Part shown: positions 1-4,855 of the stretch, piece by piece
How the letters are laid out: every line of letters starts with the position of its first letter
How positions within the stretch are numbered: position 1 is the stretch's first letter
IMG/VR virus record: IMGVR_UViG_2744054675_000004
Span: 1 to 6,095 of that record
Direction: 5' to 3' (one strand)
Source of the DNA: a virus
Taxonomy: Duplodnaviria > Heunggongvirae > Uroviricota > Caudoviricetes
Length of the DNA stretch: 6,095 bases
Position numbers and translations under genes: made by a program
Notes under the pieces: model-generated
The model's database searches: none
What the model saw: the letters and a program-made list of their open reading frames with translations, nothing else
Told to the model about the DNA's origin: nothing

Positions 1-205
1 TTTCATGTCGTGCATTGTTTGCAATGATTTTTGCTTCATAAGCAGAAATTACGTCATCTTCATGAATATCTTTCAGAAAGCTGGTGTCAAGACGTTGTAC
101 TATTTCAGCGTTCATTGATCGCTTATTGGCTTTTGCAGAAATTTCTATTTTTTCTTTTACTTCGACGGGAAGTCTGATCCTTAGTTGTGGATCTTCTCTG
201 CTCAT
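1..205 (-). CDS. mnt: Mnt-like ribbon-helix-helix repressor, 3' end runs off the window (partial)
   Basis: Minus-strand ATG at 205..203 opens a frame with no stop before position 1; it is absent from the ORF track because it is incomplete. Translation starts MSREDPQLRIRLPVEVKEKIEISAKANKRSMNAEIVQRLDTSFLKD, which matches my recollection of the P22 Mnt N-terminus (MARDDPHFNFRMPMEVREKLKFRAEANGRSMNSELLQIV). It is divergent from the arc/ant genes, as in P22 immI. Confidence 0.7.
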   Translation of the reverse strand, partial: MSREDPQLRIRLPVEVKEKIEISAKANKRSMNAEIVQRLDTSFLKDIHEDDVISAYEAKIIANNARHE

Positions 206-325: not shown

Positions 326-493
326 ATGCAAAAAGCAAAAGAGATGTGTCAACGACGAGTTCGTTTTCCGGACGATGTGAAGTTAGCTATTGAAAGAAAT
401 GGCGAAAAAGAATGCCGAAAGTTCAATACAGAGATTATCTATCAGCTGAGGAAAGTGTATGGACTCACTGGTGAGAAGAATAGCGTGGCATAA
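326..493 (+). CDS. arc: Arc-like small ribbon-helix-helix repressor (55 aa)
   Basis: ATG at 326 preceded by AAGGAG at 313-318. The ORF track starts this frame at an upstream GTG (305), but the ATG with the Shine-Dalgarno is the likelier start. Product MQKAKEMCQRRVRFPDDVKLAIERNGEKECRKFNTEIIYQLRKVYG... has the size and the basic beta-strand-then-helix pattern of P22 Arc, and sits first in the ant operon as in P22. Confidence 0.65.
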   Translation: MQKAKEMCQRRVRFPDDVKLAIERNGEKECRKFNTEIIYQLRKVYGLTGEKNSVA

Positions 494-503
494 AACAGCG
501 AAG

Positions 504-514
504 CCCCACGGTGG
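504..514. promoter_or_regulatory. Second CCCCACGGTGG copy in the arc-ant intergenic region (candidate operator or RNA structure)
   Basis: CCCCACGGTGG at 504-514 repeats the core of the 297-311 palindrome. It lies between the arc stop (493) and the ant ribosome-binding site (AGGA at 553-556). Confidence 0.3.
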
Positions 515-565
515 CCAGACCGTCAGGGCTTCAGTATCGTAAAACTACGTATAGGAATTAACGAC

Positions 566-1504
566 ATGACGAGTATAGCAACAGCAGTATCTACTATCAA
601 CGTGCCATTCCACGGCGCAGAGCTTTATGTTGTCAATCACAACGGCGAACCGTATACCCCAATGAAACCTATCGTTGAGGGAATGGGGCTAGACTGGAAA
701 TCTCAACATAAGAAGATTTCTCAACGCTTCTCGAAGGGTATGGTGGAAATCACCATACCTTCTGCCGGTGGGGTGCAAGCCATGATTTGTATGGCTTTAC
801 GAAAATTGGCAGCTTGGTTGAACAGCATCAGCCCTAACAAAGTCCGCCCTGAAATCCGCGACAAGGTAATCCAGTATCAGGAAGAGTGTGACGATGTGCT
901 CTACGAGTACTGGACTAAAGGCCATGTGGTTAACCCACGCAAAGCTAAAAAGGCGTTGCCGGGTAAAATAACAACTGAACAGCAGGAAGCCATTAAACAA
1001 CTCGTCATGAGTCGCGGTCAGTCTCTGCCAAAAGAAAAACAGGCTAAGGCGATGATCACCATGTGGTCGTCACTGAAATCTCATTTTGGCTGTTCGTACA
1101 AAGAAATTGGTGAAGATCAATTTGCCGAAGCGTTGTCTCTTGTTGCTCGGGTTCCGCTTGAAGGGGAGTATCTCCCTGCTGGATCTGCATCAGAGAATGA
1201 TGAAGTGGCAGTCAAGATGTTAGATGCGCTTCGTGAGGCAATTAAAACACAGACAAAATGTTATGGTTATCCATTGAAGCCAGGCTACCGCAGTCTGATT
1301 CATTCGCCGTCGGGTGTTCTCGGCCTGACGGAGAACTCACTGCTGATGAATCTGCTGAACCAGTTACAGGAAGACGGGCACGATGTATCGGGCGCGGCGG
1401 CGGAGCTGACCACCATGTTCTGCTACATCGTTGGTGTGAGCAAATGCCTGCGTGATATCCAGACGCACGCGGAATACATCAACGACAAGGCAGGGTTCTT
1501 CTGA
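566..1504 (+). CDS. ant: Phage antirepressor (Ant-type N-terminal domain plus conserved C-terminal module), 312 aa
   Basis: Complete ORF in the track. It sits immediately downstream of the arc-like gene in the same orientation (immI synteny). The N-terminal region (VPFHGAELYVVNHNGEPYTPMKPIVEGMGLDWKSQHKKI...) resembles AntA/P22-Ant type antirepressor N-domains from memory. The C-terminal ~75 aa are near-identical to the C-terminus of the 2560..3255 protein. Confidence 0.8.
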   Translation: MTSIATAVSTINVPFHGAELYVVNHNGEPYTPMKPIVEGMGLDWKSQHKKISQRFSKGMVEITIPSAGGVQAMICMALRKLAAWLNSISPNKVRPEIRDKVIQYQEECDDVLYEYWTKGHVVNPRKAKKALPGKITTEQQEAIKQLVMSRGQSLPKEKQAKAMITMWSSLKSHFGCSYKEIGEDQFAEALSLVARVPLEGEYLPAGSASENDEVAVKMLDALREAIKTQTKCYGYPLKPGYRSLIHSPSGVLGLTENSLLMNLLNQLQEDGHDVSGAAAELTTMFCYIVGVSKCLRDIQTHAEYINDKAGFF

Positions 1505-1530: not shown

Positions 1531-1554
1531 AACGAAACTAGCGTGACATGTCAC

Positions 1555-1580
1555 AGGCCGCTTTCGCGGCCTTGTTTTTA
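1555..1580 (+). terminator. Rho-independent terminator candidate after ant
   Basis: Stem AGGCCGC (1555-1561), loop TTTC, stem GCGGCCT (1566-1572), followed by TGTTTTTA. Confidence 0.55.
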
Positions 1581-1739
1581 ACGAATGCCACCGCCGCCAG
1601 GGCGGGAATCCGCAGAACGCCCACCGCAGCGGGAGCCGTCAGCAGCAGTGTCGCTGTCGTGCTGACAACGACCGGCAAAGGCCTGAGTTGAAGCTACCAG
1701 AGACAATAAAACGAACAGTGCAGCAAATGCTTTTTTCAT
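1578..1739 (-). CDS. Hypothetical small secreted peptide (53-aa precursor with predicted signal peptide)
   Basis: Internal ATG of the track ORF 1578..1811. Product MKKAFAALFVLLSLVASTQAFA|GRCQHDSDTAADGSRCGGRSADSRPGGGGIR has a textbook N-terminal signal peptide with an AxA cleavage motif and a 31-aa, two-cysteine, Gly/Arg-rich mature part. The ribosome-binding site is weak (GGAAA), and the frame is GC-rich and could be fortuitous. Confidence 0.3.
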   Translation of the reverse strand: MKKAFAALFVLLSLVASTQAFAGRCQHDSDTAADGSRCGGRSADSRPGGGGIR

Positions 1740-1816: not shown

Positions 1817-1833
1817 AGCCCGCAGCGCGGGCT
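1817..1833 (-). terminator. Rho-independent terminator ending the minus-strand cargo operon
   Basis: On the minus strand: AGCCCGC, loop GCT, GCGGGCT, then TTTTTTG. The hairpin overlaps the TAG stop at 1834..1832. It is A-tract-flanked on the other side, so it may act bidirectionally. Confidence 0.65.
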
Positions 1834-2272
1834 ATTCTTCTTCATCATTAAAAAGCGGATTGTTGTTTCCATCTGATGAAAGGAAAGGTATGTGTTCTCT
1901 TGAAAATCCAACAATGACAATTTCATTATCATTTTTTGCATAATGAATGCATTCATTAGAATGCCTTCCGCCAGGGTTGAAATTTAAGTTAATGGTATAA
2001 TTCTTAAATGTGTTTGGATACCATGTTGGCCCACAATGATAATGCCAATAATTCTCTTGCTCATAATTGTCTGAGCCGGGAATTTTATCATGGTTATCAT
2101 CAACCCACGAGGGCTTGTTTTTTCCAACAAGCGCCCTTCCATTGGCAACATCCTCTAAAAAACTTTGTATGATTTTTATTTCATCATCAGTAAGGAAAGG
2201 TCCGTCTACAGCGAAAGGGGTGTTGCTTTCCCCATGTAGAAAACTATTAGATATTCTAATGTTAAACTTCAA
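1832..2272 (-). CDS. Hypothetical acidic protein, 146 aa, no recognised family
   Basis: This is the 3' 146 codons of the track ORF 1832..2413. I propose a TTG start at 2272..2270 preceded by AGGAG at 2283..2279, because the first 47 codons of the long form overlap the upstream 55-aa gene in another frame and look non-protein-like (W/R-rich). Product MKFNIRISNSFLHGESNTPFAVDGPFLTDDEIKIIQSFLEDVANGRALVGKNKPSWVDDNHDKIPGSDNYEQENYWHYHCGPTWYPNTFKNY...SREHIPFLSSDGNNNPLFNDEEE. The region is AT-rich and net acidic with an acidic tail. Confidence 0.5.
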   Translation of the reverse strand: MKFNIRISNSFLHGESNTPFAVDGPFLTDDEIKIIQSFLEDVANGRALVGKNKPSWVDDNHDKIPGSDNYEQENYWHYHCGPTWYPNTFKNYTINLNFNPGGRHSNECIHYAKNDNEIVIVGFSREHIPFLSSDGNNNPLFNDEEE

Positions 2273-2292
2273 GGAAAACTCCTGATGTGCTT

Positions 2293-2460
2293 CTATTTGG
2301 AGCGAAATGCCGCCTTGAAGTCGCTGAAAGATGTTCCTGTCTGGTAAACCATATCCTTGTCGCGCTCTTTGCTTGCGCGGCCAAGCATAACTTTTCCAAT
2401 GACATCCCAGCATTGCTTGGCTTGTTTATTGTGCTGAGTACGATTTTTCAACGCTGTCAT
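2293..2460 (-). CDS. Hypothetical small basic protein, 55 aa, first gene of the cargo operon
   Basis: Not in the ORF track (below its size cut-off). ATG at 2460..2458 with a strong Shine-Dalgarno (minus-strand AAAGGAGG, 6-nt spacer), stop TAG at 2295..2293. Product MTALKNRTQHNKQAKQCWDVIGKVMLGRASKERDKDMVYQTGTSFSDFKAAFRSK is net basic. Confidence 0.5.
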   Translation of the reverse strand: MTALKNRTQHNKQAKQCWDVIGKVMLGRASKERDKDMVYQTGTSFSDFKAAFRSK

Positions 2461-2472
2461 ATCGCGCCTCCT

Positions 2473-2515
2473 TTACCTTTAAGGTAATAGTACGCTATTC
2501 ACCCACAGTCTGCAA
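2473..2515 (-). promoter_or_regulatory. Candidate sigma70 promoter with overlapping TTACC-N5-GGTAA operator (site 1) for the cargo operon
   Basis: Minus strand reads TTGCAG (plus 2515..2510), 17 nt, TACTAT (2492..2487). Palindrome TTACC-TTTAA-GGTAA at 2473-2487 abuts the -10 and the Shine-Dalgarno. Confidence 0.4.
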
Positions 2516-2535
2516 TCTGTACAGAATTATTTAAA

Positions 2536-2787
2536 GGCACATCCCTGTGCCACCGCCCGTCAGAAGAACCCTGCTTTGTCGTTGATGTACTCCGCGTGCG
2601 TCTGGATATCACGCAGGCATTTGCTCACACCGACGATGTAGCAGAACATGGTGGTCAGCTCCGCCGCCGCGCCCGATACATCGTGCCCGTCGTCCTGTAA
2701 CTGGTTCAGCAGATTCATCAGCAGTGAGTTTTCCGTCAGGCCGAGAACACCAGACGGCGAGTGAATCAGGCTACGGTAGCCGGGCTT
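2536..2787. repeat. Right arm of the inverted repeat (3' end of the Bro-N antirepressor gene plus ~25 bp downstream)
   Basis: Reverse complement aligns to 1277-1530; see left arm. Confidence 0.85.
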
Positions 2788-3255
2788 CAGCGGGGCGCTG
2801 TAGGTTTTGTTCTCTATCTTCATCGCCTGCATTACTGCTGACGCCGTGGCGTTGGCTACCTGGTCGGCAACCATCTTTATGCGTTCTTCCTGCGGGAGCG
2901 AGTTTTTAATGTAACTTCCGGTGCGGCGGATCTGAGGAAGAACCTCACCTGTAACCCATTTACGAAAGCGGTAGGGGATAGTGCCTGGTGTCACCGCATC
3001 GCGGCAGCGGAGGATCAGTGTGTAGAGGCCTGACTCGGAGATGATGATCGATTCTTGCTCACCGCCAGGGGTGTCGGTTGAAGCGACGCCCTTCTCATCA
3101 TCATCAAGTTTTCGAACAGCATCTCGATGGTTTGCTATGCCTATAGCCCGACAAACATCTGAAGCGATAAACCATGGCTCACCATTAATGACGATTACCC
3201 GTATATCGGCTTGGGATTCGAAAGAAAAAATGGACGTGCTTTTTGTAGCTGTCAT
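2560..3255 (-). CDS. Bro-N-domain antirepressor-like protein sharing the Ant C-terminal module, 231 aa
   Basis: Complete ORF in the track. The N-terminus (FESQADIRVIVINGEPWFIASDVCRAIGIANHRDAVRKLDDDEKGV ... FRKWVTGEVLPQIRRTGSY) fits the Bro-N domain signature from memory. The C-terminal 75 aa (KPGYRSLIHSPSGVLGLTENSLLMNLLNQLQDDGHDVSGAAAELTTMFCYIVGVSKCLRDIQTHAEYINDKAGFF) differ from the 566..1504 protein at a single residue (E/D). Confidence 0.8.
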   Translation of the reverse strand: MTATKSTSIFSFESQADIRVIVINGEPWFIASDVCRAIGIANHRDAVRKLDDDEKGVASTDTPGGEQESIIISESGLYTLILRCRDAVTPGTIPYRFRKWVTGEVLPQIRRTGSYIKNSLPQEERIKMVADQVANATASAVMQAMKIENKTYSAPLKPGYRSLIHSPSGVLGLTENSLLMNLLNQLQDDGHDVSGAAAELTTMFCYIVGVSKCLRDIQTHAEYINDKAGFF

Positions 3256-3451
3256 AGTGGTTACCTTTTAGTCTGGTTAATCACCACTACCGACGCCAAT
3301 CGGTTGGTGGTGAACTGTGCAGGGTTGGCGTAACCGGCTAAAAGGACCCGGCGCACCTTTCGGTGCCCCCACACAGCCCACCATAATACGAATGTGGCCG
3401 TGCTATACGCATAAAAAAACCGCTTGCGCGGTGAATGCGCCTTTTAGTAAT

Positions 3452-3489
3452 CCGGGACGCCAATCCCGGCACTGGATTTTTCCAGTGCC
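3452..3489. other. Tandem perfect hairpins in the divergent intergenic region
   Basis: CCGGGA-CGCCAA-TCCCGG (3452-3469), immediately followed by GGCACTGGA-TTTT-TCCAGTGCC (3468-3489; 9-bp perfect stem). No T-tract follows on either strand. Confidence 0.35.
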
Positions 3490-3524
3490 CGATTACTATG
3501 ACACAAGAGGAGTGCGATGTAAAT

Positions 3525-3539
3525 TTACCGCAAAGGTAA
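3525..3539. promoter_or_regulatory. TTACC-N5-GGTAA palindrome, site 2
   Basis: TTACC-GCAAA-GGTAA, centred about 93 bp upstream of site 3. Confidence 0.4.
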
Positions 3540-3616
3540 TGATAAGCGCGGAGGTATATAAAAATCAACCGTATTTGGTTGGTGGCGTTTAGCGCTTGAT
3601 CACCTGAAAGCAAGAT

Positions 3617-3633
3617 ATTACCTTTAAGGTAAT
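3617..3633. promoter_or_regulatory. TTACC-N5-GGTAA palindrome, site 3, just upstream of the 242-aa gene
   Basis: ATTACC-TTTAA-GGTAAT ends 20 bp before the ATG at 3653. The half-sites and spacer are identical to site 1. Confidence 0.45.
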
Positions 3634-3652
3634 GTTATTGTGAGGAAAAGCA

Positions 3653-4381
3653 ATGGAAGTTTTCTGGATAGTTGTTGGTGTGGTTGCGGTGATTATTTAC
3701 GTTATCAACCAGAACAAGACTAAGATCTCTGATCGTACGGTCGTTAATCATAACAAAACGATAAAGACCGAAGATGGGGAGATAACGATTAATCGTACAC
3801 AGGTGATAGAACACACCTCTACTCAGTTTCAAAAAACTGGAGGTAATGCGCCTAATATTTCCGCACCTCCTGCTTATGATAGTGCGGTAATCCAGACATA
3901 TTATAAACAGCAGGAGTTAGCAAAAGAGAGGCAACTGATTCAGCCAAAGCCGTTTACAGCTGAGCTTCCACCTGGAGTGTCAACGCCTCCGGCATATCAT
4001 GGAAGATTCCCTGGTGATGACATATCGTCTCAGTCATCTAAAAAAGCACCTCAGGCAGTATCAGAGCCAGCAAGAATACCTTCTGTATCGCCGCCAAAAG
4101 AAGAATCAGCTAACAGAGTTTCAAGTGGTAGCAAGCAGTGCTTGCGATGCAGAATAAACCTTCCGTATGAGAAGTTCAGGAAATCGTCAAAAAATCCAGA
4201 TGGATTGACTAAGTGGTGTGCAAGGTGTCTCGATGGCCCAAAGAATACACGTCATATGAAGTGGTGCCCAATTTGTAATGTCCGCAGAAAACGAACCAGC
4301 TTTTACCCTAATAATCAAAATGCGGATGGCTTAATGGCATGGTGTAAAACGTGCTGGGACGAGCACAAAGCGAAACGATAG
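3653..4381 (+). CDS. Hypothetical membrane-anchored protein with a Pro-rich linker and C-terminal tandem CxxC zinc-ribbon repeats, 242 aa
   Basis: Complete ORF in the track, with AGGA 7 nt upstream of the ATG. N-terminal hydrophobic helix EVFWIVVGVVAVIIYVI followed by NQNKTK. Low-complexity middle with two PPAY motifs. C-terminus has C-x2-C ... NPDGLTKWC-x2-C and C-x2-C ... NADGLMAWC-x2-C (8 Cys in 4 CxxC pairs). It is followed directly by a terminator. Confidence 0.65.
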   Translation: MEVFWIVVGVVAVIIYVINQNKTKISDRTVVNHNKTIKTEDGEITINRTQVIEHTSTQFQKTGGNAPNISAPPAYDSAVIQTYYKQQELAKERQLIQPKPFTAELPPGVSTPPAYHGRFPGDDISSQSSKKAPQAVSEPARIPSVSPPKEESANRVSSGSKQCLRCRINLPYEKFRKSSKNPDGLTKWCARCLDGPKNTRHMKWCPICNVRRKRTSFYPNNQNADGLMAWCKTCWDEHKAKR

Positions 4382-4404
4382 GCCGCTCTAGCGGCCTTTT
4401 CTTT
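4381..4404. terminator. Bidirectional rho-independent terminator between convergent genes
   Basis: GGCCGC-TCTA-GCGGCC followed by TTTTCTTT on the plus strand. The same hairpin lies directly after the stop of the minus-strand gene 4403..4660. Confidence 0.65.
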
Positions 4405-4660
4405 ATGTGGTTTGTTTTCGTAATTGTTCGGCACAATAGTCGAGATGTGTTTGCAGATCCTGCATAGACATCTGTGAGCTGGTGACGTAGTTAATCAGTG
4501 CAGTCAGTTCGGCAAGTGGGCCATCGACATTAAATCCATCCTTATCGAGATCCCGGAGTAATTTCATCAAGTGCGATCCCTCCACCAGTGACCTGACGCC
4601 TCCCGGCGTGTGAATCCTTTCGGTAAATCCGTCTTCCAGTGGATAGTGATACTGCTGCAT
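4403..4660 (-). CDS. Stand-alone homolog of the antirepressor C-terminal module, 85 aa; candidate SOS-inducible antirepressor
   Basis: Track ORF 4403..4678 starts at a TTG; the ATG at 4660..4658 with GGAG 8 nt upstream is the likelier start. The product (…HTPGGVRSLVEGSHLMKLLRDLDKDGFNVDGPLAELTALINYVTSSQMSMQDLQTHLDY…) aligns with the C-terminal module of both antirepressors (HSPSGVLGLTENSLLMNLLNQLQEDGHDVSGAAAELTTMFCYIVGVSKCLRDIQTHAEY) at roughly 40-45% identity by eye. A LexA box lies 20 bp upstream. Confidence 0.65.
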   Translation of the reverse strand: MQQYHYPLEDGFTERIHTPGGVRSLVEGSHLMKLLRDLDKDGFNVDGPLAELTALINYVTSSQMSMQDLQTHLDYCAEQLRKQTT

Positions 4661-4679
4661 CTTATCTTCTCCATGCAAT

Positions 4680-4699
4680 AACTGTATATTTATACAGTA
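4680..4699. promoter_or_regulatory. LexA (SOS) box
   Basis: AACTGTATATTTATACAGTA matches the E. coli consensus TACTGTATATATATACAGTA at 18 of 20 positions, with CTGT-N8-ACAG intact. It lies 7 bp upstream of the Shine-Dalgarno of the minus-strand gene 4403..4660. Confidence 0.7.
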
Positions 4700-4735
4700 T
4701 CAAATAATTTGTTTGCTATCCAGCACGTTTTGCAA

Positions 4736-4752
4736 ATTACCCGAAAGGTAAT
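4736..4752. promoter_or_regulatory. TTACC-N5-GGTAA palindrome, site 4
   Basis: ATTACC-CGAAA-GGTAAT in the divergent region between the LexA-boxed small gene and the tailspike gene. Confidence 0.4.
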
Positions 4753-4855
4753 ATCTATTGGTATTTATAGTCTTTCTATCCATATGTGGTTTTTCAGGTA
4801 ATAGAATAACCAGATATGCGGCGCAACGGGTGCTGCGACTATCTGGAGATTTAAC

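What the first reader, a model, noticed from the sequence alone, without database searches (positions are those of the whole stretch)
2473..4752. Recurrent palindrome TTACC-N5-GGTAA at four intergenic positions suggests a single regulator controls the accessory genes
Sites at 2473-2487, 3525-3539, 3618-3632 and 4737-4751 share perfect 5-bp half-sites with variable 5-bp spacers (TTTAA, GCAAA, TTTAA, CGAAA). All lie in promoter-proximal intergenic DNA: site 1 overlaps the predicted -10 of the cargo operon, site 3 ends 20 bp before the 242-aa gene, sites 2 and 3 are about 9 helical turns apart, and site 4 is between the LexA-boxed gene and the tailspike gene. Conserved half-sites with an unconserved spacer favour a dimeric DNA-binding protein over an RNA hairpin. 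I do not recognise this as a known operator.
Basis: seen in the sequence. Interest (0 to 1): 0.7.

Follow-up and report, generated by a model that had tools for sequence, protein, structure and literature searches.

The report
Operator sites of prophage repressor Rep
The four palindromes are real and are most likely copies of the operator that the master repressor of epsilon15-like prophages uses at about a dozen promoters across its genome, so the accessory genes here fall under the ordinary lysogeny switch; the type phage's database record already annotates this motif as a repressor site.

Summary
Observation confirmed: four exact TTACC-N5-GGTAA sites at the stated coordinates, against 0.01 expected by chance.

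The window comes from an epsilon15-like (Uetakevirus) E. coli prophage, 95-99% identical to phage TL-2011b and a JNEC-KY171 prophage. The palindrome is not special to the accessory genes.
- Each related genome has 8-11 exact copies, more than 200-fold over expectation.
- It is the most enriched 5-Nk-5 palindrome in three genomes.
- Every copy is intergenic.
- Copies flank the repressor gene on both sides.
- There are no exact copies in 34 kb of flanking host DNA.

The epsilon15 RefSeq record already annotates ATTACC-N5-GGTAAT as "protein_bind: repressor". One annotated site is the orthologue of site 4. The repressor in the relatives is a homologue of the SPC32H Rep protein (PDB 5D50). The window's 91-aa gene with the LexA box is the matching antirepressor Ant.

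Sites 1-3 sit in fixed register with predicted promoters: for the cargo operon, for a P1-type c4-antirepressor module, and for the 242-aa gene.

It was wrong to treat the motif as unknown and as specific to accessory genes. Verdict: new members of a known kind; modest interest.

The parts
2473..2487 (.). Operator site 1, TTACC-TTTAA-GGTAA
   Evidence: Exact match. Homology to TL-2011b, lost across the cargo genes at 1856-2471, resumes at 2472, one base before the site.
2487..2515 (-). Predicted promoter of the cargo operon: -35 TTGCAG (2515-2510), 17-bp spacer, -10 TACTAT (2492-2487). The last T of the -10 is the first T of the operator.
   Evidence: PWM score 8.4. The same register recurs in 22 strong predictions across related genomes.
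1832..2460 (-). Cargo operon: 55-aa gene (2293-2460) and 146-aa gene (1832-2272), function unknown
   Evidence: phrog_8607 and phrog_5954, both of unknown function; no Pfam or NCBIfam match. TL-2011b carries a YafO-toxin pair in this slot.
3525..3539 (.). Operator site 2, TTACC-GCAAA-GGTAA
   Evidence: Exact match. Conserved in TL-2011b, KY171, phiv142-3 and phiV10.
3539..3568 (-). Predicted promoter TTGATT-18-TATCAT reading leftward into the c4-antirepressor module; its -10 abuts the operator
   Evidence: score 11.2.
3498..3525 (+). Predicted rightward promoter ATGACA-16-TAAATT, face to face with the leftward one across site 2
   Evidence: score 9.8. Function not established.
3303..3501 (-). 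Leader RNAs of a P1/P7 immI-type module: c4-a1b1 targets (3501-3449), isrK-type sRNA with terminator (3488-3413), C4 antisense RNA (3388-3303)
   Evidence: Rfam: C4 77.7 bits (gathering score 45), isrK 76.7 bits (gathering 50), c4-a1b1 39.5 bits (below gathering 46.7).
2560..3255 (-). Bro-N antirepressor gene (231 aa) with a C-terminal domain related to SPC32H Ant
   Evidence: Pfam Bro-N, E 2.3e-21. C-terminus 42% identical to the 91-aa Ant, E 2e-15.
3618..3632 (.). Operator site 3, TTACC-TTTAA-GGTAA
   Evidence: Exact match. Part of the 3548-4402 cassette that phiV10 and phiv142-3 lack.
3596..3624 (+). Predicted promoter of the 242-aa gene: TTGATC-17-TACCTT, with the -10 inside the left half-site
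   Evidence: score 8.7. The same register occurs in 9 strong predictions elsewhere.
3653..4381 (+). 242-aa accessory gene, function unknown, with cysteine-rich zinc-ribbon-like C-terminal repeats
   Evidence: phrog_6762 of unknown function, plus weak matches to zinc-ribbon parts of endonuclease VII and Lar families; Stc1 match below the Pfam cut-off.
4737..4751 (.). Operator site 4, TTACC-CGAAA-GGTAA, orthologue of the annotated epsilon15 repressor site 19895-19911
   Evidence: Seven-genome alignment of the ant-tailspike spacer.
4403..4678 (-). Small antirepressor Ant (the mechanical ORF call gives 91 aa from a TTG start; relatives annotate 85-86 aa), the protein partner of Rep
   Evidence: PDB 5d50_E 'Anti-repressor protein', E 1.7e-47.
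4682..4697 (.). LexA box CTGT-N8-ACAG overlapping the predicted ant promoter (TGGATA-17-TACTGT, minus strand)
4781..4807 (+). Second conserved element, CATATGTGGTT-N5-GGTAATAGAAT, probably the tailspike (late) promoter, 44 bp right of site 4
   Evidence: The same element follows the operator before the head operon in TL-2011b, epsilon15 and BUCT711.

Best explanation
The four palindromes are operators for the master lysogeny repressor (Rep) of an epsilon15-like (Uetakevirus) prophage. Rep is a helix-turn-helix protein that binds palindromic sites as a tetramer, so one tetramer can hold two operators. In the lysogen, Rep is expected to occupy a-TTACC-wwWww-GGTAA-t sites placed in fixed register with sigma-70 promoters. 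The site either starts at the last base of the -10 hexamer, contains the -10 itself (TACCnT), or lies in the promoter spacer. In this window that would silence three units: (1) the leftward cargo operon, (2) the leftward P1-type c4-RNA/Bro-N antirepressor module and possibly a rightward promoter at the same site, and (3) the 242-aa gene. Site 4 occupies a genus-wide conserved position between the LexA-controlled ant promoter and the tailspike promoter, and its target is unclear. After DNA damage LexA releases ant, Ant removes Rep from DNA, and all these units should switch on together with the lytic genes. Shown here: the enrichment, the genome-wide distribution, the positions flanking the repressor gene, orthology to annotated sites, and the promoter register. 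Inferred: that Rep binds these particular sites, and the direction of the effect (repression).
For: (1) There are four exact sites against 0.01 expected. (2) The window is 95-99% identical to the Uetakevirus phage TL-2011b and to a JNEC-KY171 prophage. (3) In TL-2011b and phiV10 there are 14 sites with at most one mismatch, against 0.6-0.8 expected. In an unbiased count of all 5-Nk-5 palindromes, TTACC-N5 ranks first in TL-2011b, SPC32H and Klebsiella phage BUCT711, at 213-286 times expectation. (4) All 10 exact sites of TL-2011b lie in the 11.8% of the genome that is non-coding (p about 5e-10). (5) All 11 exact sites of the KY171 region lie in the 41-kb prophage and none in 34 kb of flanking chromosome. 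(6) Sites lie on both sides of the repressor gene in every genome: TL-2011b 5172, 5234 | rep | 5946, 5994, and SPC32H 33528, 33604, 33666 | rep | 34390, 34407, 34437. (7) The epsilon15 RefSeq record annotates seven of these sites as protein_bind 'repressor', and site 4 aligns with one of them. (8) TL-2011b gp10 matches SPC32H Rep (5d50_A, E 6.6e-42). The window's 91-aa gene matches its antirepressor (5d50_E, E 1.7e-47). (9) Rep is reported to bind palindromic DNA as a tetramer (PMC9638917). Operator pairs show a recurrent 62-bp spacing in every genome, and 93 bp here; both are near-integral numbers of helical turns. (10) The same repressor sequence in phage ZX5, when overexpressed, cuts lytic-gene transcription by 99.97-99.99% (PMC9782041). 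(11) Among strong predicted promoters near sites, the -10 begins at -5 relative to the site in 22 cases and at +1 in 9. (12) Unrelated cassettes occupying the same two slots in phage EC.W1-9 are again preceded by operator-type sites. (13) Distant homologues of the repressor N-terminal domain in Psychrobacter and Pseudomonas phages have TACC-N5-GGTA or TACC-N4-GGTA pairs on both sides of their cI genes.
Against: The window does not contain the rep gene, so the presence of Rep in the source genome is inferred from relatives. I could not read the primary papers (Kim & Ryu 2013; Kim et al. 2016; Kropinski et al. 2007). I therefore cannot confirm that the operator used in the published Rep binding assays has this sequence. 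The epsilon15 annotation may itself be a prediction. The small Cro-like protein encoded next to rep could bind the same sites and cannot be separated from Rep by comparative data. Site 4 overlaps no strong sigma-70 promoter (best scores 5.1-6.7). The promoter predictions come from a PWM only, and many of the counted cases are orthologous, so they are not independent.
Confidence: 0.85

Rival explanations
1. The sites are bound mainly by another phage regulator rather than by Rep: the Cro-like protein encoded next to rep, or the regulator encoded just before the terminase gene.
For: Sites occur before late operons (terminase, head, tailspike) as well as early ones. Comparative data cannot separate proteins that are inherited together in the immunity module. 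In lambda-type switches Cro and CI share operators (established knowledge).
Against: The epsilon15 record assigns the sites to the repressor. Rep is reported to bind palindromic sites. Distant homologues of the Rep N-terminal domain, in phages that are otherwise unrelated, keep TACC...GGTA sites around their own cI genes. Shared use by Cro would add to the Rep explanation, not replace it.
Confidence: 0.07
2. The palindromes act as RNA hairpins in the transcripts, for example 5'-end stabilisers or boxB-like 5-bp-stem pentaloop elements.
For: With the -10 ending at the first base of the site, transcripts would begin inside or just before the palindrome. The 5-bp stem with a 5-nt loop has the same geometry as lambdoid boxB (my own knowledge).
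Against: The hairpins are marginal, at -2.6 to -3.9 kcal/mol. Across 49 distinct sites the half-sites are held to one sequence rather than varying with compensation. One-mismatch variants (TCACC...GGTAA, TTACC...GGTAT, TTACC...GGTTA) are uncompensated. Sites lie in either orientation relative to the predicted promoters. Some sit in promoter spacers or upstream of the -35, where they would not be transcribed.
Confidence: 0.03
3. The palindromes are primarily recombination 'boundary sequences' at which gene cassettes are exchanged, with no regulatory role.
For: Homology breakpoints lie at or next to the sites: against TL-2011b homology resumes at 2472, and against phiV10 and phiv142-3 it ends at 3547.
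Against: This does not explain the sites around the repressor gene, the fixed register with -10 hexamers, or the 62-bp pairing. The EC.W1-9 cassette brings its own operator with different flanks. Fifteen base pairs is short for homologous exchange. A secondary role as a junction remains possible.
Confidence: 0.05

Closest known systems
Repressor-binding sites of Salmonella phages epsilon15 and SPC32H (Rep, PDB 5D4Z/5D50)
   Same: Identical motif, ATTACC-N5-GGTAAT. Same genus of phage, same dispersed intergenic placement. Site 4 is orthologous to epsilon15 19895-19911. The same Ant partner is encoded next to it.
   Different: The E. coli Rep is only 42% identical to the Salmonella Rep overall, and 53% in the N-terminal domain. 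Sites 1-3 lie in accessory cassettes that epsilon15 and SPC32H lack. No operator is described for the E. coli phages in the one paper I could read (PMC9782041).
Phage P1/P7 C1 repressor with dispersed operators, including the operator at the immI (c4-icd-ant) operon
   Same: A master repressor with many operators scattered over the genome (my own knowledge). Here site 2 stands at the promoter of a module carrying a C4 RNA, its a1/b1 targets and an antirepressor, as in P1 immI.
   Different: P1 operators are asymmetric 17-bp sites bound by a different protein family (my own knowledge). Here the sites are symmetric 5-N5-5 sites for an HTH tetramer. The antirepressor here is a Bro-N/Ant-domain fusion.
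Lambda CI at OL/OR (cooperative binding and looping)
   Same: Operator clusters on both sides of the repressor gene, and paired sites at near-integral helical spacing.
   Different: Lambda confines its operators to the immunity region. This system has them at about ten further promoters. Per the abstract of Kim & Ryu 2013, recalled from memory (the paper could not be opened), Rep is not cleaved on induction and is removed by Ant. The Ant-mediated disassembly of Rep is also described in PMC9638917.
Mycobacteriophage L5 gp71 'stoperators'
   Same: Tens of repressor sites dispersed through a temperate phage genome (my own knowledge).
   Different: Stoperators are asymmetric, orientation-dependent and lie within transcription units to block elongation. 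The sites here are symmetric and promoter-registered.

Membership tests
Uetakevirus (epsilon15/SPC32H-type) Rep operator | Sequence a-TTACC-N5-GGTAA-t with an A/T-rich spacer | tested here: met
   All four sites match. In 49 distinct sites the central spacer base is A or T in 96 of 98 symmetrised counts, and the window's spacers have a central T, A, T and A.
Uetakevirus (epsilon15/SPC32H-type) Rep operator | Identity with sites annotated as repressor-binding in the type phage | tested here: met
   The seven epsilon15 protein_bind 'repressor' features are all ATTACC-N5-GGTAAT. Site 4 aligns with the one at 19895-19911.
Uetakevirus (epsilon15/SPC32H-type) Rep operator | The genome encodes a Rep-family repressor, with copies of the site on both sides of its gene | tested here: inconclusive
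   The window lacks the immunity region. The criterion is met in the closest relatives, TL-2011b, phiV10 and the KY171 prophage. All 16 complete E. coli matches in the phage collection have an identical Rep N-terminal domain.
Uetakevirus (epsilon15/SPC32H-type) Rep operator | The cognate antirepressor Ant under LexA control is present | tested here: met
   The 4403-4678 (minus strand) product matches 5d50_E at E 1.7e-47. A LexA box lies at 4682-4697.
Uetakevirus (epsilon15/SPC32H-type) Rep operator | Intergenic, promoter-registered placement and strong enrichment | tested here: met
   10 of 10 sites are non-coding. Enrichment is more than 200-fold. The -10 register is at -5 or +1.
Uetakevirus (epsilon15/SPC32H-type) Rep operator | Direct, sequence-specific binding by Rep and repression in vivo | not testable with these tools
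   This needs EMSA, footprinting, ChIP or reporter assays. The primary binding papers are not in the library.
RNA hairpin element (boxB-like or terminator) | A stable stem maintained by compensatory changes; for terminators, a U-run as well | tested here: not met
   Folding energy is -2.6 to -3.9 kcal/mol. Half-sites are held to one sequence with no compensatory pairs and only uncompensated single mismatches. No T-run follows the sites. The terminator scan does not list them.
P1/P7 immI module (for the unit downstream of site 2) | C4 antisense RNA and its upstream targets in the leader of an antirepressor gene, transcribed from a promoter controlled by the primary repressor | tested here: met
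   C4 scores 77.7 bits (gathering 45). isrK scores 76.7 bits (gathering 50). c4-a1b1 scores 39.5 bits, below its gathering score of 46.7. A Bro-N antirepressor gene lies downstream and the operator stands at the predicted promoter. Repressor control of that promoter is inferred.

The most novel reading that the evidence does not exclude
The Rep operator may serve two purposes: a regulatory site and the junction at which accessory cassettes are swapped in the hot-spot between the last virion gene and the tailspike gene. If so, any newly acquired gene is automatically wired to the lysogeny switch. The evidence so far is limited but consistent. Cassette breakpoints fall 1 bp and 8 bp from operators. 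Every unrelated cassette seen in these two slots is preceded by an operator. Three antirepressors sharing one Ant-type domain, so presumably all aimed at Rep, are placed under three different controls: LexA, the Arc/sar module, and Rep plus C4.
Probability: 0.25. Interest if true: 0.5.

Novelty: new member of a known kind. Interest (0 to 1): 0.28.

Why it matters
The result turns an apparently new operator into an identified one. The accessory genes of this prophage hot-spot are an unknown two-gene cargo operon (a YafO toxin pair in TL-2011b), a c4-RNA/Bro-N antirepressor module and a 242-aa zinc-ribbon protein. They are predicted to be silent in the lysogen and to fire on induction. That would make them early lytic or induction-phase functions, not lysogenic-conversion genes, which changes how one should look for their roles. 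The analysis also gives a ready operator map of about 11-14 sites per genome for the E. coli Uetakeviruses. The one accessible experimental paper on these phages (PMC9782041) names no operator and says the mode of action of repressor and antirepressor remains to be unravelled.

Tried and rejected
- Chance was rejected: 0.01 sites expected in the window, and more than 200-fold enrichment genome-wide.
- An RNA hairpin or terminator was rejected: weak folding energies, no compensatory variation, no T-run.
- A host-factor regulon has no support. There are no exact sites in 34 kb of flanking chromosome, although only about 0.03 would be expected there. A whole-chromosome scan was not possible, because collection scans need at least 14 specified bases.
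- I looked for a competing palindrome in the rep-cro region. GTGACATGTCAC is enriched, but it sits at the ends of operons, not in the immunity region.
- I tried five times to read the primary papers on SPC32H Rep/Ant and the epsilon15 genome, by DOI and by PMC id. None is held.
- Literature searches for an operator description in phiV10 or the Uetakeviruses found none.
- The exact source genome of the window is not among the complete E. coli assemblies. The best record covers 82% at 95% identity.
- Pfam and NCBIfam gave no function for the cargo proteins.
Full report
**1. The observation**

A pattern scan finds exactly four TTACC-N5-GGTAA sites, at 2473, 3525, 3618 and 4737, with spacers TTTAA, GCAAA, TTTAA and CGAAA. 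Dinucleotide-preserving shuffles give 0.01 sites on average, and none of 200 shuffles reaches four.

**2. Where the window comes from**

The window is a mosaic stretch of an epsilon15-like (genus Uetakevirus) temperate podophage of E. coli.
- It is 95-96% identical over most of its length to Escherichia phage TL-2011b.
- It is 90-99.6% identical to a prophage of E. coli JNEC-KY171.
- It shares segments with phiV10, phiv142-3, HEMP4 and ZX5.

Gene content:

| Coordinates (strand) | Feature | Evidence |
|---|---|---|
| 2-205 (-) | Arc-family gene, partial | |
| 326-493 (+) | Small Arc-like gene | |
| 566-1504 (+) | P22-type antirepressor | |
| 1578-1739 (-) | 53-aa membrane protein | |
| 2293-2460 and 1832-2272 (-) | Two-gene cargo operon, function unknown | |
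| 2560-3255 (-) | Bro-N antirepressor | |
| 3653-4381 (+) | 242-aa zinc-ribbon-like protein | |
| 4403-4678 (-) | 91-aa gene behind a LexA box | |
| from 4856 (+) | Tailspike gene | |

**3. The motif is genome-wide and centred on the repressor gene**

- In TL-2011b and phiV10 there are 14 sites each with at most one mismatch, against 0.6-0.8 expected.
- SPC32H, epsilon15 and Klebsiella phage BUCT711 have 9-11 exact copies each.
- I counted every 5-Nk-5 palindrome (k = 0-9) without prior assumption. TTACC-N5-GGTAA came first in TL-2011b, SPC32H and BUCT711, at 213-286 times expectation.
- All ten exact TL-2011b sites lie in the 11.8% of that genome that is non-coding (p about 5e-10).
- In the JNEC-KY171 chromosome, all 11 exact sites fall in the 41-kb prophage and none in 34 kb of flanking host DNA.
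- In each genome the sites bracket the repressor gene: two or three to its left, where the leftward early operon starts, and two or three between it and the divergent cro-like gene.
- Further sites stand before the replication-region genes, the terminase gene, the head operon, the tailspike gene and, in some phages, the lysis or conversion genes.

**4. The motif is already annotated as the repressor's site**

The curated RefSeq record of epsilon15 carries seven 'protein_bind / repressor / lysogeny' features. Read out, every one is ATTACC-N5-GGTAAT. In a seven-genome alignment of the ant-tailspike spacer, the window's site 4 occupies the same columns as the annotated epsilon15 site 19895-19911. 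The half-sites are invariant there apart from one T-to-C change shared by TL-2011b and phiV10, while the flanks drift.

**5. The proteins**

- The repressor of TL-2011b (gp10) matches SPC32H Rep (PDB 5D50 chain A, E 6.6e-42).
- The window's 91-aa LexA-boxed gene matches the SPC32H antirepressor Ant (5D50 chain E, E 1.7e-47).
- The gp10 N-terminal domain is identical in all 16 complete E. coli matches in the phage collection.
- A later paper summarises the SPC32H work: Rep binds palindromic DNA sites as a tetramer whose DNA-binding pairs come from different dimers, and tetrameric Ant breaks it up (PMC9638917).
- For phage ZX5, whose repressor has the same sequence as phiV10's, overexpressed repressor cut endolysin and holin transcription by 99.97-99.99% and blocked lytic growth. 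The Bro-N antirepressor pushed the phage towards lysis. That paper names no operator (PMC9782041).
- I could not open the primary SPC32H and epsilon15 papers. Equating the published Rep operator with this sequence therefore rests on the epsilon15 annotation and on the comparative evidence here.

**6. Anatomy relative to promoters**

I scored sigma-70 promoters around every exact site in six sequences. Among the strong predictions, 22 have the -10 hexamer starting 5 nt before the site, so its last T is the first T of TTACC. Nine have the -10 inside the left half-site (TACCnT). A few have the site in the promoter spacer. Many of these cases are orthologous, so the count overstates independence.

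In the window:

| Site | Strand | Predicted promoter | Register | Downstream unit |
|---|---|---|---|---|
| 1 | - | TTGCAG-17-TACTAT | -10 ends on the first base of the site | AGGAGG and the ATG of the 55-aa gene follow directly |
| 2 | - | TTGATT-18-TATCAT | -10 ends on the first base of the site | c4-RNA / Bro-N antirepressor module |
| 2 | + | ATGACA-16-TAAATT | -10 ends on the first base of the site | Reads towards site 3 and the 242-aa gene |
| 3 | + | TTGATC-17-TACCTT | -10 inside the left half-site | 242-aa gene |
| 4 | - / + | No strong promoter overlaps it | About 45-59 bp upstream of the predicted start of the ant promoter (TGGATA-17-TACTGT); 44 bp left of CATATGTGGTT-N5-GGTAATAGAAT | That element also follows the operator before the head operon, so it is probably the late promoter |

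Operator pairs show a 62-bp spacing twice in every genome. Sites 2 and 3 are 93 bp apart. Both are close to whole numbers of helical turns, as expected if one tetramer bridges two sites.

**7. What lies behind site 2**

Rfam places three RNA features on the minus strand between site 2 and the Bro-N gene:
- an isrK-type sRNA with its terminator (3488-3413, 76.7 bits);
- the a1/b1 target hairpins (3501-3449, below the family threshold);
- a C4 antisense RNA (3388-3303, 77.7 bits).

This is the layout of the P1/P7 immI operon. There, from my own knowledge, the primary repressor C1 also controls one of the promoters. Site 2 would be the counterpart of that operator.

**8. Cassettes**

- Against TL-2011b, homology is lost across the cargo genes (1856-2471) and resumes at 2472, one base before site 1. 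TL-2011b carries a YafO-toxin pair there.
- phiV10 and phiv142-3 lack 3548-4402, which holds site 3 and the 242-aa gene. The junction is 8 bp beyond site 2.
- EC.W1-9 has unrelated genes in both slots. Each set is again preceded by an operator-type site (3604 exact; 4789 with one mismatch).
- Phage PAS61 has only ant and site 4.

So whatever gene occupies this hot-spot comes with a Rep-type operator.

**9. Rivals**

- **RNA hairpins:** unlikely. Folding energies are -2.6 to -3.9 kcal/mol. Half-sites are held to one sequence rather than covarying. Single mismatches are uncompensated.
- **A Cro-like or other phage regulator sharing the sites:** this cannot be excluded and would be compatible with Rep binding.
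- **A purely recombinational role:** this does not explain the promoter register or the sites around rep.
- **Distant relatives:** phages with a homologous repressor N-terminal domain (36-40% identity; Psychrobacter pOW20-A, Pseudomonas PseuP_224) have TACC-N5-GGTA or TACC-N4-GGTA pairs on both sides of their cI genes, plus one or two isolated copies elsewhere in the Pseudomonas phage. This ties the half-site to this protein family. The recognition-helix residues are not conserved in those relatives, so I treat it as supporting evidence only.

**10. Verdict**

Two parts of it do not hold: the motif is not specific to accessory genes and it is not unknown. It is best explained as the dispersed operator of the Uetakevirus master repressor, and the type phage's record already annotates it. 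Sites 1-3 are new members located in accessory cassettes. Interest is modest.

Noticed in passing
window 3303-3501 (minus strand): The leader of the Bro-N antirepressor gene holds an isrK-type sRNA with terminator (3488-3413), c4-a1b1 targets (3501-3449, below threshold) and a C4 antisense RNA (3388-3303). This is a P1/P7 immI-type module inside an epsilon15-like phage.
   Followed up: partly
window 497-564 (minus strand): A sar antisense RNA match (44.8 bits, gathering 43) lies between the Arc-like gene and the P22-type antirepressor gene. The left end of the window is therefore a P22-type immI module.
   Followed up: no
window 566-1504 (+), 2560-3255 (-), 4403-4678 (-): Three antirepressor genes share the SPC32H-Ant domain (42% identity, E 2e-15 and 5e-16). 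The C-termini of the two large ones form a 270-nt, 90% inverted repeat (1236-1505 / 2559-2828). Each gene has a different predicted control: Arc/sar, Rep plus C4, or LexA.
   Followed up: partly
window 1544-1553: The palindrome (G)TGACATGTCA(C) sits just before terminator 1555-1572. It recurs at the ends of transcription units in every Uetakevirus genome checked. It marks the exact point (1540-1542) where the P22-type immI module is inserted relative to phiV10 and phiv142-3.
   Followed up: partly
window 4781-4807; L001 14875-14897 and 35641-35663; L004 2988-3010 and 19940-19962: A conserved element, CATATGTGGTT-N5-GGTAATA, lies 44 bp (tailspike) or 56 bp (head operon) downstream of a Rep operator. 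It is probably a shared late promoter or activator site.
   Followed up: partly
window 2472 and 3547/4403: Homology breakpoints with relatives fall 1 bp and 8 bp from operator sites. Different phages carry unrelated cassettes in the same two slots, each with its own operator.
   Followed up: partly
L001 5172/5234 and 8227/8289; L002 31953/32015 and 35070/35132; L003, L004, L007: Operator pairs recur at exactly 62 bp start to start, twice per genome, in E. coli, Salmonella and Klebsiella phages (one Klebsiella pair is 63 bp).
   Followed up: no
L006 27397-27417; L002 35132-35152: At the DUF1064 gene the right half-site (GGGGTAA or GAGGTAA) lies 3 nt before the ATG. It probably doubles as the ribosome-binding site, giving a very compact promoter-operator-start arrangement.
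   Followed up: no
window 3498-3568: Two predicted promoters face each other across site 2: plus strand ATGACA-16-TAAATT and minus strand TTGATT-18-TATCAT. They share the operator at their start regions.
   Followed up: no
L010 8762-9706; L009 10907-11819: Siphophage- or myophage-type phages of Psychrobacter and Pseudomonas have CI repressors with a homologous N-terminal domain but an S24-peptidase-like C-terminal part. They carry TACC-N5-GGTA or TACC-N4-GGTA operator pairs on both sides of cI, plus one or two isolated copies elsewhere in the Pseudomonas phage.
   Followed up: partly
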